Of a stretch of 64,000 bases of DNA, positions 95 to 40,696 are shown piece by piece (within the stretch, counting starts at the first letter, position 1; each line of letters opens with the position of its first letter). Source of the stretch: an uncultured Rhodobacterales bacterium (GTDB lineage Bacteria; Pseudomonadota; Alphaproteobacteria; Rhodobacterales; CAZPXZ01). Below the pieces are notes generated by a model. That model was not told where the DNA came from. It saw nothing but the letters and a program-made list of their open reading frames with translations, and ran no database searches. The position numbers and the translations under genes are program-made. The stretch covers positions 257 to 64,256 of the forward strand of contig CAZPIN010000242.1 in NCBI GenBank assembly GCA_964586735.1, read 5' to 3'.

Positions 95-559
95 TTGCCC
101 GTGCCCCTACGCCAGCCCGAGCTACCGAATCTTCCCAGTTTCAAGCTCTCGCAGTATCTGCCGCACCAGCTTACAGCTGCTGCCGAACACCTCTGCGCCG
201 GCATCGCACGGCGCATATGGGCGGAATTCAGACTTACCGACGCCGAGTGGAGAATCCTGGCGCTGCTGGCTGACCGGGGCGACGTGCTGGTCGCGGACGT
301 CGAGGGGTTGGTGTATCTGGAGCAGCGCAGAATCGCCAAGGCCGTACATCGACTCGTCGCGTTGGACTATGTCGAGAAATACAAGGACAAGAGCGACAAA
401 CGCATTCTGTATCTCGCCCTGACCAGAAGGGGCGTCCTTATGGCCCAGCGCCTGCTGGCGGTGGCGCGCGAGTACCAGCGGAACCTCGAAGAAGTCACCG
501 GCCCGGATTGGAAAAGCCTGGAACGCGCGCTTGGCAACCTGCTTCGGGAGCCGCTCTGA
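95..559 (+). CDS. MarR-family winged-helix transcriptional regulator
   Basis: 154-aa ORF with a TTG start as drawn. 'LTDAEWRILALLADRG..VADVEGLVYLEQRRIAKAVHRLVALDYVEKYKDKSDKRILYLALTRRG' matches the MarR wHTH plus wing pattern. Confidence 0.8.
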   Translation: MPVPLRQPELPNLPSFKLSQYLPHQLTAAAEHLCAGIARRIWAEFRLTDAEWRILALLADRGDVLVADVEGLVYLEQRRIAKAVHRLVALDYVEKYKDKSDKRILYLALTRRGVLMAQRLLAVAREYQRNLEEVTGPDWKSLERALGNLLREPL

Positions 560-705
560 GCCATCTTGGAGATGCCGCCTGCCAGAGCATACGAGACTGG
601 AGGATTATGCAGGTTTCAAAGACTTGGCGCTTATGATGCAGTTTGCCACCATTTGCACCGCGCACACCCAGTCGGAAACCCGCTCAATTGAATGAGAAAA
701 CTCTA

Positions 706-735
706 TATGATACGTTTTGATACAGTTTGATACAT
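706..735 (+). promoter_or_regulatory. Three direct TGATAC hexamers at exact 10-bp spacing upstream of Hcp-like gene 1
   Basis: TGATAC at 708-713, 718-723 and 728-733 ('tgatacgttttgatacagtttgatac'), about 110 nt upstream of the ATG at 844. Function unknown. Confidence 0.4.
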
Positions 736-843
736 TTACAGGATATTGTATTCTCTTGCTGCAAGCACTACGGCAACTACCATACGGCGCACTGGCAAAT
801 CGCGCCGCCGTGGCGTGGATGCAGAAAGCAAGGAGACAGTGTC

Positions 844-1530
844 ATGGCTACAATCGTACTGGATATGGGCTCGGGGTTCTCAGGCGAATGCACCGTTAGG
901 GGCTTCACTGGCTACCTTGACGCGGTCGCGATCTTCGATGCCATCGAAGTACCCGTGCCGCAGCAGCGCACCACCGGGGGCGGCCGCACCGTCGGCAGGT
1001 CCAGAATATCCGACATCGAAGTCGTTCGCCTCGTCGACTCGGCCTCGCCTTCCATCGCCAACGCCTGCAGCGGCGGCAGGATGATCCCCGAGATCCATAT
1101 CCTCCTGTTTCGCATGCTTGAGGGCGAGCTGGTCAACCACATGGAGTACAAGATGTGGAACAGCTACATCACCCGGCTCGAGCGGGACAGCGAGGATGCG
1201 GCGGGGACCGTCTATGGACCGCACCTCAACGATTCCGGGGACCTCCTGCAGTCTAGGCCGAGCGCAGGGGCGGCCGCCACGCTCGCGCAGCGGTCGAGCA
1301 ACGTGACAGACCGCCCTTCGACGCGTCCGGCTGTGCCAAGCTTGGGGGCCAGCGTCAACCCAGTACAGGTCGAGCGGCTTTGGATCCGTCCGGCCGCAGC
1401 CAGCTGGACCTATCGGCAATACGGGCAGGGCGTCCGGCTGGGCGCCACGTCGGCCGGTTGGGACTTTGAAGGGGGCATCGATATTGACCAGAGCGCCGTG
1501 CCGAAGCAGGGGCCGAGACGCAAAGCGTAA
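844..1530 (+). CDS. hcp: Hcp/TssD-like tube-protein homolog, paralog 1, with an internal ~50-aa insertion
   Basis: ORF 727..1530 trimmed to ATG 844, which follows the SD 'AAGGAGA'. N-terminus 'MATIVLDMGSGFSGEC' and core 'VDSASPSIANACSGGRMIPEIHILLFRMLEGELVNHMEYKMWNSYITRLE' match the Hcp pattern as I recall it (D.sTP.L..ac..G..i....l..rk). The C-terminal 'VERLWIRPAAASWTY..GWDFEGG' resembles the last Hcp strands. Confidence 0.7.
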   Translation: MATIVLDMGSGFSGECTVRGFTGYLDAVAIFDAIEVPVPQQRTTGGGRTVGRSRISDIEVVRLVDSASPSIANACSGGRMIPEIHILLFRMLEGELVNHMEYKMWNSYITRLERDSEDAAGTVYGPHLNDSGDLLQSRPSAGAAATLAQRSSNVTDRPSTRPAVPSLGASVNPVQVERLWIRPAAASWTYRQYGQGVRLGATSAGWDFEGGIDIDQSAVPKQGPRRKA

Positions 1531-2326
1531 CCGCGGGAAGGAGTGTCGCAGAAGCCCTGGGCAGCCGTCCTGCCCTCCGTCTCGGCCCTTGCCGCCAGAC
1601 AGACGCAGGACAGCAGCCGCCGGCGCACCGCATTGGGCTGGTTCGGAAACCCGAGACTGAGGCCGACTTAGTGGGGTGTGTCAGGGGCGCGCTTGGCGCG
1701 GAATCTTCCCGGCCGACGGAACCATCGACGAGAGGCACTCTCCGGAGGCGGCATGCCCCGTAGGGAGGTGGTCCGCGGCGGCGCTTCATGACTTGCCGCG
1801 TAGAAGATGGCCGCCTTCGGCGACGGCGGCGCATTCCAAAATAACGTGAGGCTCAGCCCCCTGCTGGATGCCAGTGATCCATCATGGCGCCGGCGATACG
1901 CATCGTCGGTGTTGTCAGGAAGGCGGCTGCGGGCTAGGATTCGCCGCTCGTAGCGGCGGTGTCTGAGTGACCGGATGTTTCCGCAATGGGGAGCCGAATG
2001 CTCCGCAATGGACAGCTGTTCCGCCAGCAGTCTTGTCTGCGCCATCTCAGGTTGAGCGATGGAACAGCCGTCGGCCCCCGCGCCGCAGGCGCACGGCGCA
2101 GAAGCCATCCAGCCCGGCGTCCGGCCGCGCCGTCCAGAAGCAGTTCTTGTCCAGCCGCGGGCCAGCGTCTCAGGCTTCGCACGGTCGAGCTCAGGTTGAC
2201 CTGCGGTACCAAATGACGAGACCGTCAGGAGAGCGGCGGCGTGCATGGGTTGCACTTGGAGAAGAGAGGATGCTGTCAAGCGCGGCGCAGCGACTGCATC
2301 AAAGTGCCGTCAAGCGTCAGTCCATA

Positions 2327-2426
2327 TGATACAATTTGCTAGCGATTGCTACCCGCAGAACTGAGATTTCGCCCCCCGTGAAATGATGCGATGGCTTGCT
2401 TGAGCCTGTTTGATATAGTTTGATAC
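2327..2426 (+). promoter_or_regulatory. TGATAC/TGATAT repeats upstream of Hcp-like gene 2, homologous to the 706-735 element
   Basis: TGATAC at 2327-2332. TGATAT at 2411-2416 and TGATAC at 2421-2426 are 10 bp apart. The flanks 'gtttgatatagtttgatac' align with copy 1. Confidence 0.35.
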
Positions 2427-2543
2427 TTTTTTGCAGTATGAATTCCATTTGCGGTACGCGGCGGAAAGGCTACTCTATGGCATGCGAGCTGTTCCGCTCC
2501 AGCGCGGAGCAGGAACCGCAAAGCAACAGAAGGAACCAGAACC

Positions 2544-3200
2544 ATGGCGACAATCGTATTGGACATCAGGGGAATCCGAGGAGAATCCAGAGTTGCGGGC
2601 TATCAAGGATGCCTTGATGCAGTCGCAGTCTTCGACTCTCAGGAAGTACCCGTGTCGCAGGTCCCCGGCTCGACCGGACGCACAGTCGGCAGAGCCGCTC
2701 TGGCCGACTTTCAGGTCGTGCGCTACGTCGATTCGGCTTCGCCGGCGATCGCCAAAGCGTGCAGCGGAGGCCAGGAGATCCGGGAGATCAGGATTTTGCT
2801 GTTCCGCATGCTTGATGGCCAGATGGTCAATCATATGACCTACAAGCTGGTGAACAGCTACATCACCCGGCTAACGCGACAAAGCGAGGATGCTGCAGGG
2901 ACCGTCTTTGGCCATCAGATCAATGATGCCGCTGAGACACTGGTACCCAGCGCCAACGCTGGAGCGGCCGCTGCGCTCACGCGGCAGCTTGTCGCAGACC
3001 GCCCTACCCCGCGTCCGGCCAAGGAATCTCCATGGTTCAGAGCCGTGGAAGGCGACGTCGAACGTCTTTGGATCCGTCCAGCCGCAGTCAGCTGGGCCTA
3101 CCAGGAGTACAAGAATGGCGCACGGCAAGGCACCACCATGACCGGGTGGCACTTTGAAGAGGGCGTCGATATTGGCGAAAGCTCTTTGGTGACGGGATAG
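2544..3200 (+). CDS. hcp: Hcp/TssD-like tube-protein homolog, paralog 2, with an internal insertion
   Basis: 218 aa. It has the same N-terminal 'MATIVLDIRGIRGES', core 'VDSASPAIAKACSGGQEIREIRILLFRML' and tail 'VERLWIRPAAVSWAYQEY..GWHFEEG'. The leader 'gcaaagcaacagaaggaaccagaaccATGG' is conserved. Confidence 0.7.
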   Translation: MATIVLDIRGIRGESRVAGYQGCLDAVAVFDSQEVPVSQVPGSTGRTVGRAALADFQVVRYVDSASPAIAKACSGGQEIREIRILLFRMLDGQMVNHMTYKLVNSYITRLTRQSEDAAGTVFGHQINDAAETLVPSANAGAAAALTRQLVADRPTPRPAKESPWFRAVEGDVERLWIRPAAVSWAYQEYKNGARQGTTMTGWHFEEGVDIGESSLVTG

Positions 3201-3389
3201 CAGCCAGTGAGCGCTCGCCAAAACCGAACCATGAGCCCTGTTGCCGCTCAGGCGCTTTGCCGCCAGACACGGGCAGAACAGGCGCCGCCCAGCCTCAACG
3301 GGCTGGATTGAAGCGGCCGCCACCACCATTGCGCACCAGTCCACTCCATAGCGGAGTGGAAGCCGCAAGCAACAGAAGGAAACAGAACC

Positions 3390-4040
3390 ATGGCAACAAT
3401 CGTATTGGAAATCGATGGATACCAGGGGGAATGCAGGATCGTGCGGCATCAAGGCTGCCTCGACGCGGTCGCGATCTTCGACTCCTTGGAGGTTCCGGTA
3501 CCGCAGCAGAGCAGCGGCGCGGCCGGACGCACCGTCGGCAGATCCAGGATGGCGGACATCGAGGTCGTGCGCTACGTCGACTCGGCTTCGCCTTCACTCG
3601 CCAATGCATGCAGCGCAGTCAAGCACATCGGCAAGGCGTCGATCCACCTTTTCCGCATGCTTGAGGGCCAGCCGGAAAAGTACATGAGCTACGCGCTGTA
3701 TGACAGCTACATTACCCGAGTCGAGCGGAGCACCGAGGACGCAGCGGGGACCGTCTATGGCCCCCACTTCAACGACTCCGGCAGCGTCATACCGCCCAGC
3801 TCGAACGCTGGAGCTGCCCCTACGATGGAGCAGCTCAAAGCCGCAATTAACGGCCGCCCGGTCCCGCGTCCTGCTTTGCCGGGCACAGGGAGCGGCGTAA
3901 ACCCGGTCCAGGTTGAGCGGCTTTGGTTCCGGTCGGCCTCCGTCGGATGGTTCTACTACCATTACGAGCAGGGCGTCTTCCAAGGCAACTTCAATAAGGG
4001 GTGGAACTTTGAAGAGGGCGCTGAATTGAGGTCGGGGTAG
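3390..4040 (+). CDS. hcp: Hcp/TssD-like tube-protein homolog, paralog 3, with an internal insertion
   Basis: 216 aa: 'MATIVLEIDGYQGEC', 'VDSASPSLANACSAVKHIGKASIHLFRML', 'VERLWFRSASVGWFYYHY..GWNFEEG'. The leader 'gcaagcaacagaaggaaacagaaccATGG' is nearly identical to paralog 2. Confidence 0.7.
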   Translation: MATIVLEIDGYQGECRIVRHQGCLDAVAIFDSLEVPVPQQSSGAAGRTVGRSRMADIEVVRYVDSASPSLANACSAVKHIGKASIHLFRMLEGQPEKYMSYALYDSYITRVERSTEDAAGTVYGPHFNDSGSVIPPSSNAGAAPTMEQLKAAINGRPVPRPALPGTGSGVNPVQVERLWFRSASVGWFYYHYEQGVFQGNFNKGWNFEEGAELRSG

Positions 4041-4318
4041 CAGCTGGCGAGCGCCCGCCAAGGCTGAGAACAGGCGCCAGCCCGCCTCCCTCGCCCCGGC
4101 GTGGATCCAGCGGGCAGGTGCTTGTTCTCGTCGACGGACCGAGCGGCCCCGAAGGGGGAGGCCGAACGAATAGAATTCGTTAGGGCTACGCCGGATACGC
4201 GGGCGTCCCTACTCTGCCAGGATGCTGCCCGGGCGCAGTCTCGGCGAGACGCCGCCTGTAGGGGAATCGTGGACCGCGCTTGGGGACTTGACCTGCATGA
4301 CCCCGCGACGGCTGCCGT

Positions 4319-7143: not shown

Positions 7144-7637
7144 GGCCGCGCTTCCTCTCCGGCGGCCGCCTCGCCCGCCTCTACCAGCCCGTCCATCCCG
7201 TCCTCATCGTCATCCAAGTCATAGTCTTCGTCCGCCTCGCCGTACTCTTCATCCGCGTCGGCCGCCGCATCGTAGCCGCCGTTGCCGCCGCCAAGCGATT
7301 GCCCGTATTCGCTGGCCGCCTCGTCTTCGCCGGAGCTCGCTTCGTCGCTCCCCGCATCCAGCAGCCCCTCGATGCAGTCGGCCGTCCGCAAAAGCTGCTC
7401 GGCGACCTTCGCTCGGACCTCCGCGTCCCTCTGCCGCTCCTCCTCCGCCTGCACGGTCAAGGTTGCCAGCTGGCGCTTGCGCTCCTCGCCAATCTTCTGC
7501 TCGCGCTCCACGGCCTCCTCGAGCATGGACATGGATTCGGACAGTTCCCGCAGCGCGTCGAGCAGGCTCTCGCGGGCGTCCTCCGCTGGCTCCTCCGGCT
7601 CCAGTTTCCAAGCCGGCTGCGCCATCGGCCGCTCCAT
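7140..7637 (-). CDS. DUF4164-like coiled-coil protein with a long acidic C-terminal tail
   Basis: This is the C-terminal 165 codons of the long shadow ORF 7140..9926. It starts '[16 protein letters not shown]', has the coiled-coil '[36 protein letters not shown]', and has an ATGA overlap with zapA. Confidence 0.6.
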
Positions 7638-7862
7638 GCCTTCCGCGCCCCGGACCATTCCGGGCCGCCTGCCAGCCGCCCTTTTACCGCATCCGCGCAC
7701 CAAGGGGAAATTGCCTCCGGGCCGGCCGCCGCGACCCGGCTGCTCGACGTCTCCGCCGCCATGGCGCCGCCGCCGCCAAGTACGCGCCCCGTCGTCAATT
7801 GCGATATTGTGCGGCGTCGCCGCGCCGCCTGCCGCGGCGGATGCATCGTCCCGGGTAGAGCC

Positions 7863-9890
7863 ATGAAACCATCCAACCGCCGCGACGCGGCAGGCAACCG
7901 CCACCGCCGCATGGCGGCCGCGCTTCGGGCGCTGGCCATCGACGCGGTCGAGCGCGCCAAGTCGGGCCATCCGGGCATGCCCATGGGCATGGCGGACGTG
8001 GCGACCGTGCTGTTCGACCGGCATCTGCGCGCCGACCCCGGCCATCCGCGCTGGCCCGACCGCGACCGGTTCGTACTGTCGGCGGGACACGGCTCGATGC
8101 TGCTCTACGGACTGCTCCACCTGACCGGCCACGCGGACATGCCGATGTCGGAGATCAAGGCGTTTCGCCAGCTCGAGTCGCACACCGCAGGCCACCCCGA
8201 GTACGGCCTGGCCCAGGGCATCGAGACCACCACCGGTCCGCTGGGCCAGGGGCTGGCGACGGCCGTCGGCATGGCCATGGCCGAGCGCATGCTGGCCGCC
8301 CGCTTCGGCAGCCGGGTGGTCGACCACCACACCTACGTCATCGCCGGCGACGGCTGCCTCATGGAGGGCATCAGCCACGAGGCCATCAGCCTCGCGGGAC
8401 ATCTGCGGCTGGGCAAGCTGATCGTGCTGTTCGACGACAACCAGATCACCATCGACGGCGCGGTGGAGCTGTCCGACTCGACGCGCCAGATCGACCGCTT
8501 CCGCGCATCGGGCTGGGACGTCTCCAGCGTCGACGGCCACGACCCCGCCGAAATCGACCGCGCCATCACAGCGGCGCGCCGCGCCTCCCAGCCCAGCCTG
8601 ATCGCCTGCCGCACGGTGATAGGAGCGGGCGCGCCCACCAAGCAGGGCACCGCCGCCGCCCACGGTGCCCCTCTCGGCCCCGACGAGGCCGCCGCCGCCC
8701 GTGCCCACTGGGACTGGCCCCACCCTCCATTCCACGTGCCGAAAGAGGTACTCGCCGACTGGCGCAAGGCCGGCCAGCGCGGCGCCGAGCAGCGCAAGCA
8801 GTGGCAGCGCAGGGTGCGGGCCCTGCCCAAGGACGAGCGGACGCGGTTCGCCGCCTGGCTGCGCATGGAGATGCCGGCAAGCCTCGACAAAGAGATGGCC
8901 CGCCACAAGAAGACGCTGATCGACGAGAAACCCAAAATGGCCACCCGCAAGGCCTCGGAGCTGGCGTTGAACGTCGTCAACCGCGAGGTGCACTGGACCA
9001 TCGGCGGCTCCGCCGACCTGACCGGATCCAACAACACCCGCACCGGCGAGCTGCAGGTCTTTGCGGCTGACGCGCCGAAGGGACGGTACGTGCACTGGGG
9101 CGTGCGCGAGCACGCGATGGCGGCGGCGATGAACGGCCTGGCGCTGCACGGCGGCTTCATTCCGTATGGCGGTACGTTTCTGGTCTTCGCCGACTACGCC
9201 AGGCCCGCCATCCGCCTCGCCGCCCTGATGGGGCTGCGGGTGGTGTTCGTGCTCAGCCATGACTCCATCGGCCTGGGCGAGGACGGCCCCACGCACCAGC
9301 CGGTCGAGCACCTGTCGATGCTGCGGGGCACTCCCAATCTCAACGTGTTCCGCCCGGCGGACGCGGTGGAAACGGCCGAGTGCTGGCAGATTGCCCTGCA
9401 GTCCGAGACCACGCCCAGCGTAATGGCGCTGTCGCGCCAGAACCTGCCGACTGTGCGTACCAAGGCGCAGCGCGCCAACCTCTGCGCCCGCGGCGCCTAC
9501 GTGCTGGAGGACTCGACCGAAAGCTGCAAGGCGGTGATCATCGCCTCGGGATCGGAAGTCAGCGTCGCCTTGGACGCCCGCGCACTGCTGGAGAAGGCGG
9601 GAGTACCCGCCCGCGTGGTGTCTATGCCCTGCGAGGAGCTGTTTGCGCGTCAGCCCGCCAGCTACCGGCGCAGCGTCCTGCCCAAAGGACCCGTCCGCGT
9701 GGCGGTCGAAGCGGGCGTGCAGAGAGGCTGGGAGCGCTGGCTGTACGGCGAGGGCGGGTGCGAGGAAAAGGCGGCCTTCGTCGGCATGAAGAGTTTCGGA
9801 GCCTCCGCGCCGGGCGAGGACCTGTACGTGCACTTCAACATCCGCGCCGATTCCGTAGTAAAGGAAGCGAAGCGCCTTCTGGGCAAGTAA
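7863..9890 (+). CDS. tkt: Transketolase
   Basis: '[30 protein letters not shown]', '[13 protein letters not shown]'. ORF 7299..9890 trimmed to ATG 7863. Confidence 0.95.
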
Positions 9891-25440: not shown

Positions 25441-25493
25441 CAGTGCAACCCTCTGGCGACGAGTTGCGGCAAAGTCATCGAGGACTGCTACCC

Positions 25494-26276
25494 ATGCGAG
25501 CCAGACAGTATATTGACGAACTAGCGTCCAGGGGCAGGCATCACTTCACTACTGCCGCCGCCATTGAGGCGTTCGGCGGAAGCGAAGGCGCTGCGCGGTC
25601 CAAGCTTCGGCGCTTGAACAAGCAGGGGCGTATAGCCAGCCCTATGCGCTCGTTTCATGTCATCGTTCCTCCGGAATACCGCCGTTATGGCTGCCTGCCT
25701 GCCGAACACATCATCGACCAGATTATGGGGATGCTGGATACTCCGTATTACGTAGCGCTGCTATCTGCGGCGGAAAAGCATGGAGTCGCCAATCAGCGGC
25801 CACAGGCGCTGCAGGTGATGGTTCCCGTCAACCGGCCCAATATCATATGCGGCAAAACGCGTATCAGGTTCATTGCGCGCAAAGACCTCGAGCGAATGCC
25901 AATTGTCAAATTCAATACTCCCCACGGGTACATCAACTACTCGACGCCCGAAGCGACCGCACTGGAACTGGTAGGCTATCCGCGGCACTCCGGCGGATTT
26001 AGCAGCGTAAGAACAGTCTTGACTGAACTGGGCAAAGGGATCAATCCCCAGAAGCTGGTTGAAGCCGCCAAACTGTGCCCTGTTGGCTGGTCGCAGCGCC
26101 TCGGCTATCTGCTGGAATTTACGGAGTTACCGGAGCTCACGACTGCCATCGAATCCTTCGTACGCGACCACGCAAACAGCTACATCTCGCTCCACAGCGG
26201 TCAATCGACCGTAGGCGCCAAGCGAAACGGGCGATGGAAGGTCATCGTAAACCACGAGGCTGATCCAGGCTTGTGA
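25494..26276 (+). CDS. abiEi: AbiEi-family antitoxin/transcriptional regulator (copy 1)
   Basis: 'MRARQYIDELASRGRHHFTTAAAIEAFGGSEGAARSKLRRLNKQGRIASPMRSFHVIV' is the AbiEi wHTH N-terminus. It is roughly 70% identical by eye to copy 2. ORF 25443.. trimmed to ATG 25494. Confidence 0.75.
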   Translation: MRARQYIDELASRGRHHFTTAAAIEAFGGSEGAARSKLRRLNKQGRIASPMRSFHVIVPPEYRRYGCLPAEHIIDQIMGMLDTPYYVALLSAAEKHGVANQRPQALQVMVPVNRPNIICGKTRIRFIARKDLERMPIVKFNTPHGYINYSTPEATALELVGYPRHSGGFSSVRTVLTELGKGINPQKLVEAAKLCPVGWSQRLGYLLEFTELPELTTAIESFVRDHANSYISLHSGQSTVGAKRNGRWKVIVNHEADPGL

Positions 26277-26480
26277 TGTCCAAGGGTTGCATCGACGACT
26301 GACGGACCAGCGCTGCCTGGCGACTGGATGTCCAGATCGAGCAAGACCGGGTACTGAGTCGCGCCAACCCTGCGATGGCCCAATGTCTGGGACTGTGGAG
26401 CGGACAGCATTACGCGACGGCACGGTACCTCCATAGGCCGCATCTTCGTTCCCCTTCTATCCACCTCAGGGCAAGTACCT
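26276..26480 (+). pseudogene. Decayed 5' fragment of an AbiEii toxin gene
   Basis: Nucleotide alignment with 27708-27915 holds for about 200 nt ('atgtccaagggttgcatcgacgacTGAcggaccagcgctgcctgg' vs 'atgatttccaaggactgcattgataagtggcggacccgcgctccctgg'). There is an in-frame TGA at codon 9, and homology is lost after about 26480. Confidence 0.65.
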
Positions 26481-26780
26481 TCATCCGGCGCCGACACTCC
26501 GCCAGTTCGCGGCGGCGAGGATAGTGATGGCAGAAACGGTCGCCCGGAGCCAGAATGGAGGGGCGCCAAGTCAGCGACGTGCCGCGCCACAATGGCGTGA
26601 TGTACCGTCTGTACCGTCTAGTATGAATGGAGGGCAGGCGAGACCACGTCTACGGCTTCAGCTGGTTTTGCGACCTGCTGCGGTACTGGCATGGCTGGTC
26701 AACGGCAACGGATGCGCAAGGGTGCACCCCGCCGCACAGCGACGGCTGCTCCATGCCAGAGCATCCAGCAGGACTGGGGC

Positions 26781-26808
26781 TTGACATCACTGCTGAGTGT
26801 GCTATGTT
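26781..26808 (+). promoter_or_regulatory. Additional strong sigma70-like promoter upstream of AbiE unit D
   Basis: TTGACA (26781-26786), a 16-nt spacer, then TATGTT (26803-26808). The corresponding positions in units A and B are degenerate. Confidence 0.4.
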
Positions 26809-26819
26809 GGTGGTAGTAC

Positions 26820-26848
26820 TTGGCGGATACACCTCTTGGTGTCATATT
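26820..26848 (+). promoter_or_regulatory. AbiE unit D promoter (fourth copy of the repeated promoter-leader)
   Basis: TTGGCG, a 17-nt spacer, then CATATT, followed by 'gaatcgtatcgcc' and the leader 'gcaacccttggcggcgaac', as in unit C. Confidence 0.5.
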
Positions 26849-26928
26849 CGGCAAGAATCGTATCGCCTAGGATAGCCAACGCAACCCTTGGCGGCGAACT
26901 GCGGCAGGACCATCGAGAGTAGCCGCTC

Positions 26929-27711
26929 ATGCGAGCTGAACAATACATCGACGACCTGGCGGCCAGCGGCAGGGGGCACTTCACGACTGCCGCCGCCATG
27001 GAGGCAATCGGTGGAAGCGAAGACGCTGTGCGGGCCCAGATTCGGCGCCTGAACCAGCGGGGGCTGGTTGCCAGTCCCATGCGCTCGTTTCACGTTATCC
27101 TTCATCCGGTATACCGGCGTTATGGCTGCGTGCCTGCTGAGTACTTCATCGACCAGCTCATGGAGACGCTGGGCACTCCGTACTACCTAGCGCTCCTTTC
27201 GGCGGCGGAACAGCATGGGGCCGCCCATCAGCGGCCGCAGGTGATGCAGGTGATGGTACCCGATAGTCGCCCCAGCATTAAATGCGGTAAAACTGTTATT
27301 CGATTCATCGTGCGCAGCGACCTCGAACGAATGCCAATTGTCAAGATCAATTCACCCTACGGGTGCATCAAGTACGCAACCCCCGAATTGACTGCGCTGG
27401 AATTGGTGGGCTACCCGCGACGTGCCTGTGGAATGGACAACGTGGCGACAATCCTGATTGAACTGGGCGAAGAGATCGACCCCAAAATGCTGCTTGAGGC
27501 CGCCAAACTATGCCCTGTTGGCTGGTCACAGCGTCTTGGCTACCTGCTGGAATTCACAGGGTGGCCAGAGCTAGCGGCTGCCATCGAGCCCTTTGTACGA
27601 GACCGCGCAAACAGCTACATTCCTCTGCGCCGCTCCCAAGCGACTGCAGGAGGCAAACGTGACACACGATGGAAAGTCATCGTAAACCACGATGTGGATC
27701 CAGACTTATGA
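26929..27711 (+). CDS. abiEi: AbiEi-family antitoxin/transcriptional regulator (copy 2)
   Basis: 260 aa, a paralog of copy 1. Its stop overlaps the abiEii start (ATGA). Confidence 0.8.
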   Translation: MRAEQYIDDLAASGRGHFTTAAAMEAIGGSEDAVRAQIRRLNQRGLVASPMRSFHVILHPVYRRYGCVPAEYFIDQLMETLGTPYYLALLSAAEQHGAAHQRPQVMQVMVPDSRPSIKCGKTVIRFIVRSDLERMPIVKINSPYGCIKYATPELTALELVGYPRRACGMDNVATILIELGEEIDPKMLLEAAKLCPVGWSQRLGYLLEFTGWPELAAAIEPFVRDRANSYIPLRRSQATAGGKRDTRWKVIVNHDVDPDL

Positions 27712-28544
27712 TTTCCAAGGACTGCATTGATAAGTGGCGGACCCGCGCTCCCTGGCAACGGGATACCATGGTCGAGCAGGACCTTGTCCTGAGTCGCGCC
27801 CTTGTTGCGATGTACTCGGTGCCCGAGATCGCTGAGCGGATAGCATTCCGCGGCGGGACGGCACTGCATAAGCTGCATCTCCGCTTCCCTGCTCGCTACT
27901 CGGAGGACATCGACCTCGTCCAGATTCGGCCAGAACCAATTGGCAAGACCATTGACCTTATACGAACTGCTCTGGATCCTTTGCTTGGCACGCCTAGGCG
28001 CATGTTCAAAGAGGGACGCATCGTCCTCCTATATCGATTCTACTCTGAGGGTCCACGCCCCAAGAAGCTGCGGCTGAAGATCGAGATCAATTCCCGCGAG
28101 CACTTCACGGTGCTTGGCCATACCAAAATCCAGTATTCTGTTGAGAACCCATGGTTTTCGGGCTCCGCCAGCGTCACCACATATACCATCAACGAGATAA
28201 TGGGATCAAAGCTTTGTGCGCTCTTTCAGAGAAAAAAGGGCCGAGACCTCTTCGACGTCGCTCTCGCACTCTCTCAAAAGCTGGTCGACACGCAAATTCT
28301 GCTGCGGTGCTTCAAGCGGTTCAGGGAAGAGGGGGGAGACGCGGTTACTCGCGCGCAGTTTGAGGCAAACCTCCATCACAAGTCCAACGATGAGGAATTT
28401 CGCGATGGTGTTGTCGAGCTACTCGAACCAGACGCTTCATGGGATTTCGATGATGCCATGCGCCTGGTACTCGACGAGATCGCCCCGCTGCTGCCCGGCG
28501 AGCCGTGGAAGGGCGAAGCAGACGATGACAACGGACAATTGTGA
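27708..28544 (+). CDS. abiEii: AbiEii/AbiGii-family nucleotidyltransferase toxin (DUF1814)
   Basis: 'AFRGGTALHKLHLRFPARYSEDIDLVQ' is the NTase GG..L / S.DiDl motif. ORF 27669.. trimmed to ATG 27708. Confidence 0.8.
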   Translation: MISKDCIDKWRTRAPWQRDTMVEQDLVLSRALVAMYSVPEIAERIAFRGGTALHKLHLRFPARYSEDIDLVQIRPEPIGKTIDLIRTALDPLLGTPRRMFKEGRIVLLYRFYSEGPRPKKLRLKIEINSREHFTVLGHTKIQYSVENPWFSGSASVTTYTINEIMGSKLCALFQRKKGRDLFDVALALSQKLVDTQILLRCFKRFREEGGDAVTRAQFEANLHHKSNDEEFRDGVVELLEPDASWDFDDAMRLVLDEIAPLLPGEPWKGEADDDNGQL

Positions 28545-28722: not shown

Positions 28723-31700
28723 CTAGAACCCCAACCTGCCCTCCAGGCGGATCGTATGGTCCGGAAGCTCCTCTGCGCCTTCCTCGCGCTGCCCATAGAG
28801 GTCGAAGCGCAGCTGGCCAATACCCGCGTCTACCCTGCGCAGCTCAGTGCCAAGACGCAGCGAGCGATCCTCGTCTGCCTGTCCCGCCTCGCCATAGACC
28901 GTCGCCAGCGCCCATTCGCCAAGCATTCCGGCACCGTAGCCGAGGCGAATCTGTATGGCACCGCCGCCATCCGCAGTGCCAGCGGAATCGGTTACGGATT
29001 TGGCGGAGGACGCCCACAGGGTGTCGCCGTCCCCTGAAAGCGACGCGTTCCATGTGGGCTTCAGGGACATCTGGAGACCGCGTCCTCCCTCGCTGGCCGC
29101 GTATTCCAGCCCAAAGCCGAGACTCCACTGCTTGAATTCTTCATCCTCATGAGCGAGCAGTGCGCTACCACCGCCTCTGAACGAGAGGCCCCGGTCCGGC
29201 GCGATGAAGCCGAACTGCATCGACACCTCCGCCCCAATGCCCTTCTCCGCATCGCCGCCGTCGACGCGTCCGCCGATGCCCATTCTCGTTATGACGGAAG
29301 CGCCAGTGGTCATCGCCCGCTTCGACTCGCGCTCTACTGCAGCGCGCATCCGGTACGAGTTCACATCTATCTTCTCCAGCGTAATTTCATCATCAAGCCC
29401 GTCAGAGGATACTGACGTGAGGAATATGTCGGCTCGCATCGACAGGCCGGAGCCTTCGTTTTCAGTGACGAGGCCGTTGCGCAGGCCGGCCGCTACGGTC
29501 TGGGTGTCAATGTCCGTCTCCAGCTCCGCCCGGTCATCTTCGGAATTGGTGGTCCCTGTACCAGCGCTATAAGCCCCCCAAACCATGCTGTTGCCATCCT
29601 CGGACACGACGTGGACGTAGGGCGTGACGCTGGCGACGCTGGTCGTTACTTCGCCGTTGCCAAGGCCGGCGCCGGCAAACTGATACTCCATCTGGCTTTC
29701 CTTGCGGCTGAACGCAACGCCCAGCATGAAGCGGTTCCTGCGGAAGCCAAGGCCGAGGTGGCTGGAGCTGACTTCGTTCTCATAGTCGAAGGCGCCAAAG
29801 TTGTCATCCGCGAAACCGCCCTCCCCTGACAAGCGGCCTGCTCCTCCCCAGAAGAGGAAAGAGGAACCGCCGTCAGACTGGCCATCCAGAGACAGCGCAA
29901 ACCGGCTTTGGTCCTGGAGGTCGCGAATACTGGGAACGTTTGCCCACTGCCTGTAGGAGTCGAAGCCGCCGCCGGAAACCTGGCTGTACTCCGAATCGAG
30001 ATGGGCTCCATACGGGGCGGCAACCTCGACGCCAAAGAAGCTGGCGATTTCCTTCGCAGCCTGACCGCCGCCAGCTCCAGCCGCCAGCGCTTTGGCACTG
30101 ACCGCGTGTCCACCCAGCACGACGCTGTCGCTGTTGCTATAGGCATGCATATCTGCGATGCTCCAAAGCTCGTCGACGACGCTAGCAGCGAACGAGCGAC
30201 TGGCGCTTGCCAAGACGTAGGAAAGCCCCCTCGCTCGGGGGTCGACAACCCGCACCGAAGTCTCGGCTGACACAACCGTTCTCCCGCTGTCCGTCGCATT
30301 TGGTTCCGCTGGCTGGATTGCCAAGTCCCCTCTCAGAACGCTAGCGCCAGTATCCCTGCGCTTGGGCCGCTCAAACTCGATGGATACAGAACCAGCTATC
30401 CTGCCATCAACCTCGAAACTCTGGGGCACCAGGTTGGTTCCCCTATAGACGGTTACTTCGCCGCTCTCTTCGCCAGTGGCACGGACTCCAGCGCTTCGCG
30501 CCGTGCCTCCCGCTGCCCCGGCCACGTCAGCGGTCGTGTAGCTCGCCCTCCACAGGACGGTCACGTCATAGTCCAGCGCCGGATACACCGCCACCTGAAA
30601 GTCGACCTTGGAGTTGGAGTCGGAATCCGTGCTAGCCCTCAGCGACCTGACGGAAAGGACCGACTGCCCCGGAGCCTCCGAAATCACGCCTTGACCGACT
30701 GCGTCTCCATCGCGATAGACTGCGCTCTCCGACTGGTTGAAAAGGGCAATCTCGACAGTCTCGCCGTAGCCCTCGGCGATGAAGTCAAGCTCGGTGGAAA
30801 GCACGATGTTTCTCGACGAAATGTCCGGTGTGAACAGCAGCCGGCCATCAGTCGCCGAGCCACTGTCAGACCGACTGGTAGTGTCCAAGAAGTCGGCGAC
30901 CGAGGCTGCCGTGCCGCCAGATACGCTGTAATCCACGGAGACTGTCCGCGCGGTGCCAGGACTCCGCGTCAGCGTAACGACAAAGACGAGATCCTGGCCC
31001 TCCACCGTCTGCGCATCGGTAATCGTCAGCGCGTCAGGGGAAGCGTCGTTATCGCGGATGACACCTAATGCTGCTGCCGCCTGAAGAGTCACGCTTCCCG
31101 ACACCACTCGCGTCAAGAGAATCTCAACGGTTTCGTTGTCTTCCAACTCCGCATCGTCCACCGTCCTCAGCGTCAGAGTAGCCGAAGTCTGCCCTGCCCC
31201 TATGGAAAAGCTGTCCGTAAGGCTGTCCAGGAAAAAGTCTCCTGCTTCGATACCTATGCCTGTAATCCTGTATCCGACTTCGATATTCGCACGGCTTTGT
31301 TCATTCAGCGATATGTCAAAAGTCAGGGTACCGCCTTCGTCTACCGGATCAGCATTGGCAATTGCCAAGGTGGGCGATTCGCCGGGGACCGGCGTCGAGG
31401 CGGGCATCTGATCGTTATCGCGAATGACGCCGGTCGCCGCCTGTCTTTGAAGCGTCACGTTTCCGGACAGCACCCTCGTCAAGCGTACCTGAATGGTCTT
31501 GTCCCGCTCCGCGACCGCATCGTCCCGCAGCGCCAGTTCCAGAGTCGCCGCGGCCCGATTGGCAGGGATGGTTATCGTACCCGTTAGGGCTGGCGTAAGC
31601 GGCGTGCTGAAGTCCGCTGCATCGACTCCCGCGCCGGATACGGCGTACTCTATCTCGGTATCCTGAAGGACCGGAATGCTGAGTGACACGCTGAATACCA

Positions 31701-34700
31701 GGGACCGGCCCTCTGGCACTGCAGGGGCATTGGAAATTATCGCAGCTGGCGGTGCAACAACGGGGGGAGGCAGACCATCATCGTCACGGACGACGACGGC
31801 TGCGCTAGACGGCGTGCCAAACGTATAGCTGGTATGGCTTTGAATGGTCAGCAGCACGGTGGAGTAGGGCTCGTCATCCTCATCCTGCGGCGCTAAAAGG
31901 CTCACCAGCACGGTGTTGGCGCCAGCAGCCATGGTCACGCTCGTACGGGTGGCATCGGCTGCGCTCAGTACGCCACTCTGGTCGTCGATAGTGAACCTCA
32001 CCGTCAGAGCGCCCGTAGCCAAGCCCGTGCGTCTTATTTCAAACACGGCGTTATCGCCCTCGCCAATGAAGGAGCTTTGCGCCACAACTGTAACCTCGGA
32101 TGGGCCTTCCGGAAGAACTTCTGTAGTGGCATCGCTTGGTATCCTTTCCTCAAAGCCCAAATCGTCATTAAAGATCAGCACGATGCGGATCAGCTTGCCC
32201 TGGTCCGCCGCAACCAGCGTATAGGAGAGGCTGCCGTCACCGATATTTTCAGGAGTCGGATCGGTTGCGCTGTCCAACCGCTGCCACTGGTAGGCGTCTA
32301 CCGCCATGACCCTGCCATTGGCGTCGGCTATGTTTGACGGCGTAGCGGTCAGAGTACGGCCAACTTCGACTGTTCCGGCTATTGTCAGAGTGCCCGTGGC
32401 GGGGGTGTTCATAATATCGCCGATTGCGCCAGTTGGGTCGCTTGCAATCGTTTCCTCAGTGCCTAAATCGTCAGTAAAGGTTAGCACGATACGGATCAGC
32501 TTGCCTTGGTCCGCCGCAACCAGCGTGTAGGTAAGGCTTCCGTCGCCGATGTCGTCAGGACTCGTGTCGGCGGCATCGTCCAGGCGCTGCCACTGATAAC
32601 TGTCAGCCGCCCTGGTCCTTCCGTCAGCGTCCGCTATGTTTGATGGCGTGGCGGTCAGGGTTTGGCCAACCTCCTCCGTACCGGTGATTGTCAGCGTGCC
32701 TGTGGCGGGGTTGTTCGTAAGCTCGCCGATGGCGCCCGTGAGAGAGCTTGTGATCGTTTCATTGAAGTCATCATCGTCCGTGAAGGTCAGAACAATGCGG
32801 ATTAGCTTGCCTTCATCCGCCGCGACCAGCGTGTAGGTAAGGCTTCCGTCGCCGATATCTTCAGGAGTCGTGTCGGCAGCATCGTCTAGGCGCTGCCACT
32901 GGTAGCTGTCTACTGCCCCGATCCTCCCGTTTCTGTCCGCTATGCTTACTGGCGTGGCGGTCAGGGTTTGGCCCACCTCCTCCGTGCCGGATATTGTCAG
33001 CATGCCAGAGGCGGGGTGTTCTGGAATCACCACGGGGCCGATCCAGTAGCTTTCTTTCACCTCCGGGTTGCCCTCGTCGTCTTCAAACTCAACCGTCACA
33101 CGGATGTATTTGTCAACCTCTGCCTGTGTAAGCGTGTAGGAAGCGTCCGTTGCGCCAGCAATGTCCACCCCCACAGTGGCAGTACGGGTGTCGGCGGTCT
33201 GCCACTGATACTGGTAGGCGACCGGGAGCGTCAGCCCATCTACAGGGTCATCGATGTTGACCGCTGAAGATATTAAAGTCTCGCCTCTCTCTGGGCTCCT
33301 GTCAATACTTGGATCACCTAGATAGCGGCTTATATTCAGATTGCCCTCGGCTGGAGCGTCGTTCTCCGCTACGGGGCCTTGCCAGCCGCTTACTGCCCTT
33401 TCCTGGGTGTTTTCGTCGTCGGTATATACCAATTCCGCCTGAACAAAACAGTTCTCGTCCTCGTTTTGCAGCCGATAGCTAGGATTGCTCGAACTTTCAA
33501 TTCTTTGCTTGTTCGTGCCGACGTTGTCCTCTGCGCAAAAGAACTCGTACCTAAAGCCTCGCCCAAACTTGTCTGTCATGCCATTTGGATCGCTGACCTC
33601 GTTTCGATTTATAGTCAAAAGTTCTCCATTACGAAGCGTTCCAGTAAGTAAATTCGCCCCAACTGTGGGTGCCACGTTGACATCCAATACCACCGGGGAC
33701 AGCGCGCTGGAGAGCACCGTCTGGTCTCCGCGGCCGTCGGTGACAGTAACCGCGGCAACCAGCTTACCGCCTGGCACCGTAATCGCGCCGTCCATAGCCG
33801 GGAGCGTTATGGTTGATCCACTAAGGGACGGCAGTAGAACTGCTCCTGTATCCGTAGTGGGATCTGTGACGGCTGTTGCGGATTCGGGGTATCTGTAGTA
33901 CGAAAACACCCACCGGCTCGTATCGGTACGGTCGCCTTCCAGCCCGTCATCGTCCATAAAACCCGATGTAACAACGGTGACATCCGTTCCTACCCTGAAA
34001 CCTACGGTAGAAGTGAAACTAAATGTCGGCGTACCCGTGGTGGGAAGGTTGGGGAGTTCAAGCACCGGCCCCGCCCAATCGCTCATTATTACCTCGGAAT
34101 TGCCAAAATTGTCGGTAAATGAAAGGGTTACTCGAAAGTACTTGCCAACATCACCTTCTACCAACAAGAAAGTAAGCGCAGTTGAATGATCTGATGCATC
34201 CGAGCCCTGATCATCATCCGCTCTTTCCCACCTATAGGTAAAGCCCAAGAAAGGATTAGGAAGTCCATTTTCGTCTACAACATCATCAAAGTCCGGTACC
34301 ATACTTGCTCCGACTTGTATCGGAGGCTGAGGTTGCCCCCGCGGCCTGCCAGTAGTAGCGACCAATTCACCTGTGACTGGGGTATTGCCCGTTCCCAGGA
34401 TCCTGATGGAAAGCGACCTCATGTCGTCTGCTTCCGCTCCCGTCCAGTAGCCGTCGCCCGTCCCAGCATCGGCGTTGTTGGGATTTCCATTTACATACCC
34501 ACTTAAGCTCCAGCTAGTAAGTCCCGTGGTAACCTGGTCTCTTTTTCTTTGCCACGTAACGCTGGTACTGCCTGTCGGCTGTGCCGGGGTGTGCCCCAGT
34601 TCAATGTAGTATGTGGTATTCGCTGTAAGTGTGGTGCTGGCGGGAGCGGTAAACTTGTTCCATGCATTCGCAGTAAGGGTTGGGTTCGTCAGCGTTACCG

Positions 34701-40113: not shown

Positions 40114-40696
40114 TGCTGGCAGACTGCCCGAGGACGCGGCGCTGGCGGAAGTGCGATGCAGGGTCGTCGGCATAGCGACGAGGCCGAGACGATGGCCGTC
40201 CTCGCGAAGGCGGGCAGCCACTTCATGAAATCCCTGCGCAACCGCCTGCTCGCCATCGCCGCTGAAGACGGTCTCCATGACATGCCGGACTGCAGGTCGA
40301 CCTCGCGCAGATTGACAAGGGCGCCCTCGACGCCTATCCTATGAGTCGCCGCGTCAGCAGCCCGCGTATGGACGGCCCGGGCACGCATCGATTCGCTGGA
40401 CGGAGGCGGCCGAGCTGTCCATAATCATGGCCGCACTGCAGGATGCGGCGCCCGGTGCGGATAGCGGACTGGACGGACTTTAACTTTTACGCCACAAGAG
40501 TCGTGGCGGTAAAATCACTTTTTTCAAACCGTAATTCTCGCGCAAATGCATGGATAAATTTTTCCACGGGGATCGTATTTGCTTCTTTGCGCAATTGCGC
40601 CACTTGCATTCTCACGCTGCATGCCTACCTTGCATGAACCATCAATCCGGAGGGGCTGGTCGGCAGCGTCTTCGCACAGACAAGGGAGCCACCGCC

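What the first reader, a model, noticed from the sequence alone, without database searches (positions are those of the whole stretch)
700..4040. Three tandem Hcp-like genes with a ~50-aa Pro/Ala-rich insertion and no T6SS partner in 64 kb
Seen: three paralogous ORFs (844-1530, 2544-3200, 3390-4040) share the N-terminus 'MATIVL(D/E)..G..GE(C/S)', the core 'VDSASP.(I/L)A.ACS......I.(L/I).LFRML(E/D)G' and the tail 'VERLW(I/F)R.A...W.Y..Y..G...G....GW.FE(G/E)G'. From memory these line up with Hcp/TssD (for example, P. aeruginosa Hcp1 has 'DKSTPNLMMACSSGKHYPQAKLTIRK' and ends '..YGWNIRQN'). Canonical Hcp has a loop of about 12 residues between the strand ending 'ITRLER' and the strand 'VERLWIRP'. 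These proteins have about 60 residues there ('DSEDAAGTVYGPH.NDSG......AGAA......RP..RPA'; roughly nt 1216-1362 in copy 1). The insertion is conserved in position but variable in sequence. Each unit also shares its SD/leader ('gcaa(a)gcaacagaaggaa(a/c)cagaaccATGG') and a downstream block ('ttgccgccagaca..'), so whole units were duplicated. I see no tssB/C, vgrG, PAAR, tssM or clpV in the window. The only neighbour is a MarR regulator. Inference: this may be an Hcp ring/tube scaffold decorated by a flexible loop and used outside a canonical T6SS, or a heteromeric Hcp set for a distant T6SS.
Basis: partly seen in the sequence, partly recalled or inferred. Interest (0 to 1): 0.7.

Follow-up and report, generated by a model that had tools for sequence, protein, structure and literature searches.

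The report
Orphan trio of long-form Hcp genes
Three neighbouring genes encode an unnamed long version of the type VI secretion tube protein Hcp; in every other genome sampled, this version sits inside a secretion-system cluster directly before a normal Hcp gene, but here it stands alone.

Summary
ORFs 844-1530, 2544-3200 and 3390-4040 are paralogs (52-57% identical) with a confident Hcp/TssD fold. Pfam T6SS_HCP matches above its cutoff, and the model's TM-score to solved Hcps is 0.83-0.90. About 60 residues replace the roughly 10-residue loop before the C-terminal beta-hairpin. The 64-kb window holds no other T6SS gene.

The insertion is not private to these genes. It defines a whole subfamily: about 38 of the best 150 representative clusters, none named by any source. 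Its length is constrained (median 61 aa) and about ten anchor residues are conserved.

In 14 of 14 loci sampled outside the window's clade, the long Hcp is followed immediately by a canonical 161-177-aa Hcp. This usually lies inside a divergent T6SS cluster (TssA/B/C/E/F/G/K/L, ClpV, DUF2169-pentapeptide, PAAR-like).

The window's clade (the window plus two short contigs and one context-less representative protein, P0008) has lost that partner and sits among housekeeping genes. Its promoters carry conserved TGATAC boxes, and a MarR gene lies upstream in two of the three contexts. The genes are under purifying selection, insertion included.

Best reading: they are specialised "minor" Hcp subunits for a T6SS encoded elsewhere in the genome. 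A T6SS-independent role is not excluded. This is a new variant of a known kind.

The parts
95..559 (+). MarR-family transcriptional regulator, directly upstream of copy 1
   Evidence: Pfam MarR_2, HTH_27 and MarR match above their cutoffs. It is 62% identical to the MarR that precedes the orthologous long-Hcp gene in L003.
633..646 (+). Conserved distal promoter box ATGATGCAGTTTGC, about 200 bp upstream of copy 1
   Evidence: It aligns with equivalent boxes upstream of unit 2, L003 and L002.
706..733 (+). Three TGATAC direct repeats at 10-bp spacing, a candidate operator. The last repeat overlaps a -35-like TTGATA.
   Evidence: The pattern has 3 matches in the window against 0.00 expected by chance. 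It is conserved in unit 2 and L003, and partly in L002. A promoter-like site TTGATA-16-TATTCT lies at 727-754.
844..1530 (+). Long-Hcp copy 1 (228 aa), ortholog of the single-copy genes in L002 and L003. Insertion at residues 116-175 (nt 1189-1368).
   Evidence: Supported. The grouping c1+L003+L002 has 88% bootstrap. Against L003, dN/dS is 0.25 in the core and 0.15 in the insertion.
1531..2325 (.). Spacer of about 0.8 kb between unit 1 and the unit 2 promoter, with no convincing gene
   Evidence: The ORFs here have flat codon-position GC and no Pfam hit. There is no Rfam hit, no T6SS probe hit and no significant RNA fold. The block TTGCCGCCAGACA lies at 1589-1601.
2326..2339 (+). Distal promoter box ATGATACAATTTGC of unit 2
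2409..2426 (+). TGATAT/TGATAC direct repeats of unit 2 (candidate operator)
2544..3200 (+). Long-Hcp copy 2 (218 aa). Insertion at residues 114-171 (nt 2883-3056). The family's PH motif is replaced by HQ.
3201..3389 (+). 189-bp spacer between copies 2 and 3. It lacks TGATAC boxes and carries the shared leader/RBS at 3369-3393, so copies 2 and 3 are probably co-transcribed (inference).
3390..4040 (+). Long-Hcp copy 3 (216 aa). Insertion at residues 115-174 (nt 3732-3911). This is the protein modelled with AlphaFold2.
   Evidence: Supported.
4066..4129 (+). Long imperfect hairpin downstream of copy 3, a candidate transcript end
   Evidence: Folding gives -71 kcal/mol with z = -3.1. It has no T-run, and the simple terminator scan did not call it.

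Best explanation
What it is: the three genes encode paralogous members of an unnamed 'long Hcp' subfamily of the T6SS tube protein TssD/Hcp. Each has a complete Hcp beta-barrel. A length-constrained, Pro/Ala/Gly/Ser-rich segment of about 61 residues, with about ten conserved anchor residues, replaces the short loop before the C-terminal beta-hairpin.

Family role: in every locus sampled outside the window's clade, the subfamily's gene lies immediately upstream of a canonical-length Hcp, in or next to a divergent T6SS-i-like cluster. Its ancestral role is therefore that of a second, specialised tube-fold subunit that works with the major Hcp. It is not the bulk tube protein.

Geometric argument (inference): six 60-residue insertions per ring would fill the lumen, clash with the sheath, or block ring stacking. 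A long-Hcp homohexamer is therefore unlikely to be a repeating tube unit.

The window's clade: it has lost the adjacent partner, moved into housekeeping neighbourhoods and triplicated long ago. Copy 1 keeps the ancestral position, beside MarR. Its promoters carry conserved TGATAC-box arrays.

Mechanism I commit to (inferred, not shown): the three proteins are alternative minor-Hcp subunits. They form homo- or hetero-hexameric rings that are loaded into, or at one end of, the tube of a T6SS encoded elsewhere in this genome. The insertion acts as the docking or recognition element. Expression is gated by a repressor that binds the TGATAC boxes, with the adjacent MarR as the candidate.
For: Shown:
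- Hcp family and fold.
- The insertion is homologous across the family, with median length 61 aa, 56-64 aa in 35 of 37 sequences, and anchors T115, D117, G120, P125, H126, G141, R156 and P161.
- Long-then-short Hcp pairing holds in 14 of 14 independent loci. Neighbours include TssA/E/F/G/K/L, ClpV, TssB/C, DUF2169-pentapeptide and PAAR-like genes.
- The window proteins match long-Hcp probes at E 1e-25 to 1e-33 with 96-99% coverage. Short-Hcp probes reach at best 2e-10 with 66-73% coverage.
- All three ORFs are intact, with dN/dS below 1 in every comparison. Between orthologs the insertion gives 0.15.
- Cis-elements are conserved in four promoters across three genomes. MarR synteny recurs in L003.

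From the literature:
- Major and minor Hcps, and Hcp heterohexamers acting as effector-recognition particles, are established in Bacteroidales (PMC13213661, PMC13035841).
- Bulky residues at ring faces abolish Hcp stacking (PMC3925092).

General knowledge, not tested here: orphan hcp genes that serve a distant T6SS are common.
Against: - No T6SS gene and no canonical Hcp lies within 64 kb.
- The two other genomic contexts of the window's clade are also housekeeping only: UvrD, M24 peptidase and thioesterase in L002, and aminotransferase plus MarR in L003. Those contigs are short (6.8 and 2 kb).
- The clade sits on a long branch. It is 35% identical to other long Hcps, against 52% among those. 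It has changed motifs that are otherwise near-invariant: RDxASPKLA becomes VDSASPS(L/I)A, and ERVWLN becomes ERLWIRP. That pattern is what a change of function would produce.
- No effector, immunity, VgrG or PAAR gene accompanies the copies, unlike typical auxiliary hcp modules.
- The rest of the genome could not be inspected.
- The insertion is modelled at pLDDT ~50 in two family members, so its position relative to lumen, face or outer wall is not established.
Confidence: 0.5

Rival explanations
1. T6SS-independent, domesticated Hcp ring. After losing its canonical partner, this clade acquired a role outside secretion. Examples would be a cytoplasmic or exported ring scaffold or chaperone whose insertion binds a client, expressed under MarR-type stress control.
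For: - Three of three genomic contexts lack any T6SS gene.
- The long/short pairing, otherwise invariant in 14 of 14 loci, is broken only in this clade.
- The clade has a long basal branch and altered conserved motifs.
- The genes are maintained by purifying selection, so they are not decaying remnants.
- The clade has its own conserved promoter architecture.
Against: - No positive evidence points to any alternative function. There are no PADLOC hits, and the only PHROG hit has unknown function.
- L002 and L003 are too short (6.8 and 2 kb) to exclude a T6SS nearby.
- From general knowledge, Hcp genes in genomes without any T6SS are uncommon.
- The insertion anchors shared with the T6SS-linked forms are retained, which suggests the same kind of contact is kept.
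Confidence: 0.3
2. The three paralogs replace the long+short pair. They assemble with each other into heteromeric rings and themselves build the tube of a T6SS encoded elsewhere, with no canonical Hcp.
For: - Three old, divergent paralogs are retained side by side.
- There is precedent for obligate Hcp heterohexamers (PMC13035841).
- No short Hcp lies in 64 kb.
Against: - All three carry the full-length insertion. Every ring would then carry six insertions, which is hard to reconcile with a stackable tube enclosed by a sheath (geometric inference; PMC3925092 shows how sensitive the ring faces are).
- In L002 the clade member appears to be single-copy within 6.8 kb.
Confidence: 0.1
3. Non-functional relics of a lost T6SS island that are drifting towards pseudogenes.
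For: - The locus has lower GC (61.8%) than its flank (69.3%), which looks island-like.
- A spacer of about 0.8 kb without a gene separates units 1 and 2.
- dN/dS between the window paralogs is fairly high, 0.46-0.73.
Against: - All three ORFs are intact and full-length, and the core folds at pLDDT above 90.
- dN/dS is below 1 in all 20 comparisons, and 0.15-0.25 between orthologs.
- Promoter boxes and the RBS are conserved across genomes.
- Orthologs persist in at least two other genomes.
Confidence: 0.05

Closest known systems
Canonical T6SS tube protein Hcp/TssD (Pfam PF05638; e.g. P. aeruginosa Hcp1 1Y12, A. baumannii Hcp 4W64)
   Same: The fold and strand order are the same: the beta-barrel, the single alpha-helix (the 'DSASPxLAxAC' motif), the extended beta2-beta3 loop and the C-terminal hairpin ending in 'GW.F/I'. 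Foldseek gives E 1e-14 and TM-score 0.83-0.90 normalised to the Hcp chain.
   Different: - About 60 residues replace the roughly 10-residue loop before the C-terminal hairpin.
- The proteins score below the NCBIfam TssD cutoff, 36-45 bits against 58.9.
- No T6SS genes lie nearby in the window.
T6SS-linked long Hcp subfamily (unnamed; e.g. P0158, P0165, P0166, P0167 in loci L005-L018 and L139-L141)
   Same: - The insertion sits at the same position, has the same length and shares anchors (T/S115, D117, G120, P125-H126, G141, R156, P161).
- Alignments are full-length at E 1e-25 to 1e-33.
   Different: - Those genes are always followed by a canonical Hcp, usually inside a T6SS cluster. The window's clade is not.
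- The window's clade is only about 35% identical to them.
- It has altered core motifs.
Minor Hcps and Hcp heterohexamers of Bacteroidales T6SS-iii (B. fragilis Hcp1-4; PMC13213661, PMC13035841)
   Same: - Several divergent Hcp paralogs accompany one major structural Hcp.
- Some minor Hcps carry small insertions that AlphaFold models with low confidence.
- The proposed role is effector recognition by specialised rings.
   Different: - They belong to a different T6SS class (iii against i-like) and a different Hcp lineage.
- Their insertions are short (about 13-15 residues) and at other positions.
- They sit next to effectors, whereas the window genes have no effector neighbour.
- The comparison is functional analogy only. 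No homology of the insertion is implied.
Tube-fold accessory proteins of other contractile systems (T4 gp48/gp54 tube initiators, gp3 terminator; Afp5/Afp7 of eCIS)
   Same: A second protein with the tube fold is encoded beside the main tube protein, which is the arrangement seen for long+short Hcp in the related loci.
   Different: - No sequence relationship was tested or found here.
- T6SS clusters are reported to lack such proteins (PMC5813253).
- The role is a hypothesis for the family and is not shown.

Membership tests
Hcp/TssD (T6SS tube protein, PF05638) | Sequence match to the family profile above the curated cutoff | tested here: met
   PF05638 scores 53.5, 58.0 and 66.7 bits against a cutoff of 23.5. 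The stricter NCBIfam TIGR03344 model is not met, at 36-45 bits against 58.9.
Hcp/TssD (T6SS tube protein, PF05638) | Hcp fold: two-sheet beta-barrel, one flanking helix, extended beta2-beta3 loop, C-terminal hairpin | tested here: met
   In the AF2 model the core has pLDDT above 90. Foldseek top hits are all Hcp, with E down to 1e-14 and TM-score 0.83-0.90 normalised to the target.
Hcp/TssD (T6SS tube protein, PF05638) | Forms hexameric rings that stack into a tube | not testable with these tools
   Only monomer prediction was available, and no model coordinates were returned.
Hcp/TssD (T6SS tube protein, PF05638) | Encoded with, or serving, a T6SS (tssB/C, tssE-G, tssJ-M, vgrG) in the same genome | tested here: inconclusive
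   None was found in the 64-kb window.
Long-Hcp subfamily (defined here) | Insertion of about 56-64 residues at the loop before the C-terminal hairpin, with anchors T/S-x-D-x-x-G ... P-H ... G ... R ... P | tested here: met
   The window insertions are 58-60 residues long by motif boundaries, or 59-61 by the alignment-column measure used for the family range. Anchors are present in copies 1 and 3; copy 2 has HQ in place of PH.
Long-Hcp subfamily (defined here) | Canonical-length Hcp gene immediately downstream | tested here: not met
   This holds in 14 of 14 loci outside the clade. It is absent in the window and in L002.
Long-Hcp subfamily (defined here) | Located in or beside T6SS core or spike genes | tested here: not met
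   The window, L002 and L003 have housekeeping neighbours only.
Specialised Hcp with a fused effector domain (Hcp-ET type) | C-terminal toxin or effector domain appended to Hcp | tested here: not met
   The extra residues are internal and low-complexity. They have no Pfam, PDB or PHROG match of their own. The C-terminus ends 10-25 residues after the Hcp fold.

The most novel reading that the evidence does not exclude
The long Hcp is a new class of T6SS component: a second tube-fold subunit that a divergent, cross-phylum T6SS lineage requires alongside its canonical Hcp. It could be a tube initiator or adaptor on a non-canonical spike, a distal cap, a lumen plug, or an obligate heterohexamer partner. 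The window's clade would then be a derivative freed from both the partner and the machine, and would now work as a stand-alone, MarR-controlled Hcp-ring protein.
Probability: 0.3. Interest if true: 0.75.

Novelty: new variant of a known kind. Interest (0 to 1): 0.55.

Why it matters
Hcp has been treated as a uniform building block of about 160 residues. Only in 2026 were heteromeric 'minor Hcp' rings shown to select effectors, and only in Bacteroidales.

This analysis finds a conserved second Hcp form with a fixed-length 61-residue insertion. In MAGs labelled Rhodobacterales, Paracoccaceae, Pseudomonadales, Gammaproteobacteria, Acidobacteria, Dehalococcoidia and Ca. Azophilus, it is genetically locked to a canonical Hcp within a divergent T6SS-i-like lineage. 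That gives a concrete, testable case of division of labour within the T6SS tube outside Bacteroidota.

It also bears on the statement that T6SSs lack tube-accessory proteins (PMC5813253).

The window adds a natural experiment: a clade of this protein that has lost both the partner gene and the cluster yet is still under selection. Finding out whether this organism has a T6SS would show whether an Hcp ring can be re-used outside secretion.

Tried and rejected
- Close-family scans of genome contigs and metagenome contigs found nothing. A degenerate DNA pattern for VERLWIRP returned 120 metagenome stretches, all chance matches by tblastn.
- The A4 alignment was too diverse for the search for related loci. 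A subset (A6) worked.
- The AFDB Foldseek library was unavailable, so structural neighbours gave no organism names.
- Attempts to see beyond the window's left edge through the MarR protein failed with two alternative start codons. Look-ups of the Hcp copies returned only 1.5-1.7-kb contigs from run SRR16090826.
- The first NJ bootstraps were invalid. The Kimura distance became undefined above p = 0.85 in resamples. I capped it and recomputed on unrooted splits. Deep nodes remain unresolved: the split between insertion-bearing and insertion-less sequences has 31% support.
- A fourth, degenerate Hcp copy or a decayed partner in the 1531-2543 spacer is rejected.
- A known RNA in the locus is rejected.
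- An anti-phage defence role is not supported; there are no PADLOC hits.
- A plasmid origin is not supported. No long form was found in 72,556 plasmid records.
- A second AF2 model, of a T6SS-linked member, did not give a confident insertion structure either.
- The VgrG-sized proteins of the related loci match no Pfam, NCBIfam or PDB sequence. Calling them spikes rests on size and position only.


Full report
**1. The observation**

The three ORFs are present exactly as described: 844-1530 (228 aa), 2544-3200 (218 aa) and 3390-4040 (216 aa), all on the + strand. They are 52-57% identical to each other and share the quoted N-terminal, core and C-terminal motifs. tblastn of each copy against the whole window finds exactly three copies and no degenerate fourth.

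A MarR-family regulator lies at 95-559. The locus has 61.8% GC against 69.3% in the next 5.7 kb. Its genes have GC3 of 0.75-0.77, against 0.85-0.92 for housekeeping neighbours. The locus therefore looks like an acquired island.

**2. They are Hcp with a true internal insertion**

- Pfam T6SS_HCP (PF05638) matches all three at E 4e-14 to 3e-18, above the gathering score. The match covers only residues ~6-114, which is profile positions 2-110 of 129.
- The stricter NCBIfam TssD model matches below its cutoff.
- A family profile searched against PDB sequences matches solved Hcps in two pieces. For 7fcf_B, profile 6-108 matches chain 6-113, and profile 172-208 matches chain 124-162. About 63 profile positions replace about 10 residues.
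- An AlphaFold2 model of copy 3 has a core at pLDDT above 90. Residues 115-174 sit at about 50, with one tentative helix at 142-154.
- Foldseek against the PDB returns only Hcp structures at the top: 4W64 at E 1e-14, then 1Y12, 7FCF and 4TV4. TM-scores normalised to the Hcp chain are 0.83-0.90.
- The insertion spans residues 116-175, 114-171 and 115-174, which are nt 1189-1368, 2883-3056 and 3732-3911. It has no match of its own in PDB or PHROGs.

**3. The insertion defines a family**

The word-indexed search found only five close proteins, three of them the window's own. The exhaustive profile search of 1.84 billion representatives gave 885 hits at E<=1e-3 and 17 at E<=1e-30. About 38 of the best 150 are proteins of 189-230 aa that align across the insertion, most of them end to end.

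In an alignment of 37 such proteins, the insertion is at the same place in all of them. It has a median length of 61 residues, and 35 of 37 fall between 56 and 64. Proline is enriched (10.3% against 2.9% in the core). About ten positions are conserved: T115, D117, G120, A122, P125, H126, G141, R156, P161 and E174 in copy-3 numbering.

None of 33 family members recovered from the annotated collection carries a name from any source. Apart from the window's own proteins, all come from ENA or Logan assemblies. No long form occurs in 72,556 plasmid records. A second AF2 model, of the T6SS-linked member P0165, also leaves the insertion at pLDDT 42-58.

**4. Genomic context elsewhere**

I read 14 independent loci that carry a long Hcp outside the window's clade. 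These are L005 (with its variants L006 and L007), L008, L010, L011-L018 and L139-L141. In all 14, a canonical-length Hcp gene of 161-177 aa starts 14-170 bp downstream. That short Hcp matches PF05638 in one unbroken stretch, positions 2-128 of 129. L018 has two long+short pairs in tandem.

Most of these loci also carry T6SS core genes:
- TssE, TssF and TssG.
- ClpV, TssK, TssL (DotU) and TssA (ImpA_N).
- A TssM-sized protein of about 1,150 aa with no family hit.
- TssB and TssC in L013 and L141.

Downstream usually come VgrG-sized proteins of 750-850 aa with no Pfam, NCBIfam or PDB match. These are followed by a DUF2169/pentapeptide protein and a PAAR-like protein. L011 and L017 are auxiliary modules (long + short + VgrG-sized) without core genes nearby.

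The eight loci with named records are all MAGs. They are labelled Rhodobacterales (two loci), Paracoccaceae, Pseudomonadales, Gammaproteobacteria, Acidobacteria, Dehalococcoidia and Ca. Azophilus. DUF2169/pentapeptide proteins are known T6SS accessory factors (PMC8747328, PMC11883445). Five literature searches did not surface a description of a long Hcp or of a two-Hcp T6SS-i lineage. That is absence from a limited library, not proof of absence.

**5. The window's clade is the exception**

Pfam scans of about 43 further window ORFs find no T6SS family. They find metabolic and transport genes, AbiE, MazE-like and HEPN-NTase modules, Mrr, and a 2,171-aa Calx-beta/Ig protein. tblastn with 30 proteins taken from the related T6SS loci hits only the three Hcp copies at E<=0.1.

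The clade consists of the window's three genes, P0002 (L003), P0004 (L002) and the representative P0008. It is monophyletic with 100% bootstrap. L003 shows MarR followed by long Hcp, with an aminotransferase upstream. L002 shows a single copy between UvrD plus M24 peptidase and a thioesterase. The clade was not found in GTDB species representatives or in JGI metagenome contigs.

On shared core columns, the clade is 35% identical to T6SS-linked long forms. Those are 52% identical to each other, and the clade is 23.5% identical to the short partners. Motifs that are near-invariant elsewhere are changed: RDxASPKLA becomes VDSASPS(L/I)A, and ERVWLN becomes ERLWIRP.

Copy 1 groups with the L002 and L003 genes (88%). 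Copies 2 and 3 are not sisters (1%), so the triplication is old. DNA similarity of the neighbouring sugar-ABC operon to Rhizobiales and Rhodobacterales replicons (75-79%) places the organism in the Alphaproteobacteria but no closer.

**6. Selection and regulation**

Nei-Gojobori dN/dS is below 1 in all comparisons: 0.25-0.58 in the core and 0.15-0.73 in the insertion. Between copy 1 and its L003 ortholog, the insertion (0.15) is at least as constrained as the core (0.25). dS is probably underestimated in this GC3-rich genome, so the absolute values are rough.

Four promoters (units 1 and 2, L003 and L002) share two elements:
- A distal box ATGAT(A/G)CA(A/G)TTTGC at 633-646 and 2326-2339.
- An array of TGATAC direct repeats with 10-bp spacing at 706-733 and 2409-2426. 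The array is reduced to one copy in L002.

The last repeat of unit 1 doubles as a -35-like hexamer. Unit 3 has neither element but shares a 25-nt leader/RBS with unit 2. A significant hairpin follows it at 4066-4129, with z = -3.1. I infer that unit 1 is transcribed alone and that units 2 and 3 are transcribed together. The two MarR proteins are 62% identical. That MarR binds the boxes is a guess.

**7. How it probably works**

Shown: a full Hcp fold, a homologous and constrained insertion, obligate genetic pairing with a canonical Hcp in a T6SS lineage, and loss of that pairing in the window's clade with continued selection.

Inferred, step 1: strand topology places the insertion on the same ring face as the C-terminus, which is opposite loop L4,5. 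The evidence is the strand order in the model: 79-91, turn, 94-114, insertion, 175-193, turn, 196-206. Douzi et al. place L4,5 and the C-terminus on opposite stacking faces and show that bulky residues there stop tube formation (PMC3925092). A. baumannii Hcp residues at the ends of the equivalent loop also contact the mid-helix (PMC4469607), so an outward-facing position cannot be excluded. No model coordinates were available to settle this.

Inferred, step 2: wherever it points, six 60-residue segments per ring are hard to fit in a repeating tube inside a sheath. Together with the invariant short partner, this argues that the long form is a specialised or minor subunit. It could be a heterohexamer partner, an end ring or adaptor, or a carrier. 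This is analogous to Bacteroidales minor Hcps (PMC13213661, PMC13035841). It would also be an exception to the reported lack of tube-accessory proteins in T6SS (PMC5813253).

For the window, I favour minor-Hcp paralogs that serve a T6SS encoded elsewhere (0.5). The alternatives are a T6SS-independent ring protein (0.3), a self-sufficient heteromeric tube (0.1) and relics (0.05).

**8. Verdict**

The finding is real, and the Hcp assignment is right. The insertion is a family trait, and the window holds an orphan, triplicated offshoot of that family. This is a new variant of a known kind and is of moderate interest in itself. Interest would be higher if the family turns out to be a new T6SS component, or if this clade works without a T6SS.

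Noticed in passing
Not in the window: proteins P0009, P0012, P0016, P0033 (also P0014, P0027, P0032, P0036, P0060, P0068, P0089, P0113): These are giant single-chain proteins of 1,048-2,164 aa. The four whose sequences were read (P0009, P0012, P0016, P0033) consist of six or more tandem canonical-length Hcp domains without the insertion. P0016 and P0033 have an N-terminal 'RR..LE.R.LLA' leader. P0009 has flanking Ig-like regions and an HExxH-like motif. Six domains in one chain suggest a covalent pseudo-hexameric Hcp ring.
   Followed up: partly
L013:13949 onward (Acidobacteria MAG JAJDVI010000092.1): A second short Hcp in this T6SS locus continues as a 685-aa ORF. It is an Hcp with a long C-terminal extension, like a fused-effector Hcp.
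   Followed up: no
L005-L018 and L139-L141 (related T6SS loci): This T6SS lineage is divergent. The VgrG-sized proteins (750-850 aa), their 550-650-aa paralogs and the TssM-sized protein (~1,150 aa) match no Pfam, NCBIfam or PDB sequence. Even the short Hcp scores just under the NCBIfam TssD cutoff, 58.5 against 58.9 bits.
   Followed up: partly
window 28723-35238 (-): This is a 2,171-aa ORF in a lower-GC stretch (~60%). Its only weak matches are Calx-beta and AIR9 Ig-like domains, which suggests a giant surface or adhesin-like protein.
   Followed up: no
window 25443-28544 (+): Two AbiEi antitoxin paralogs (25443-26276 and 26929-27711) are followed by an AbiEii nucleotidyltransferase toxin (27669-28544). 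This is a type IV TA / abortive-infection module with a duplicated antitoxin.
   Followed up: no
window 51106-53916 (-): This is an AT-rich island: the 52-54 kb bin has 47% GC against a window mean of 63.5%. It carries a fused nucleotidyltransferase-HEPN protein (51106-52104) and an Mrr-type restriction endonuclease (52792-53916).
   Followed up: no
window 7299-9890 (+): The transketolase ORF as listed is 863 aa, and the Pfam match starts only at residue 202. The true start is probably downstream, or the protein has an N-terminal extension of about 200 residues.
   Followed up: no
window 1531-2325: About 0.8 kb between Hcp units 1 and 2 has no convincing ORF, no Rfam hit, no probe hit and no significant RNA fold. 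This is unusually long non-coding DNA for this gene-dense window, and its origin is unexplained.
   Followed up: partly
window 40550-41695 (+) and 45281-46900 (-): A YhgA-like (Transposase_31) protein and a predicted AAA-ATPase (PF09820) flank a lower-GC stretch at 44-46 kb, which may be remnants of a mobile element.
   Followed up: no
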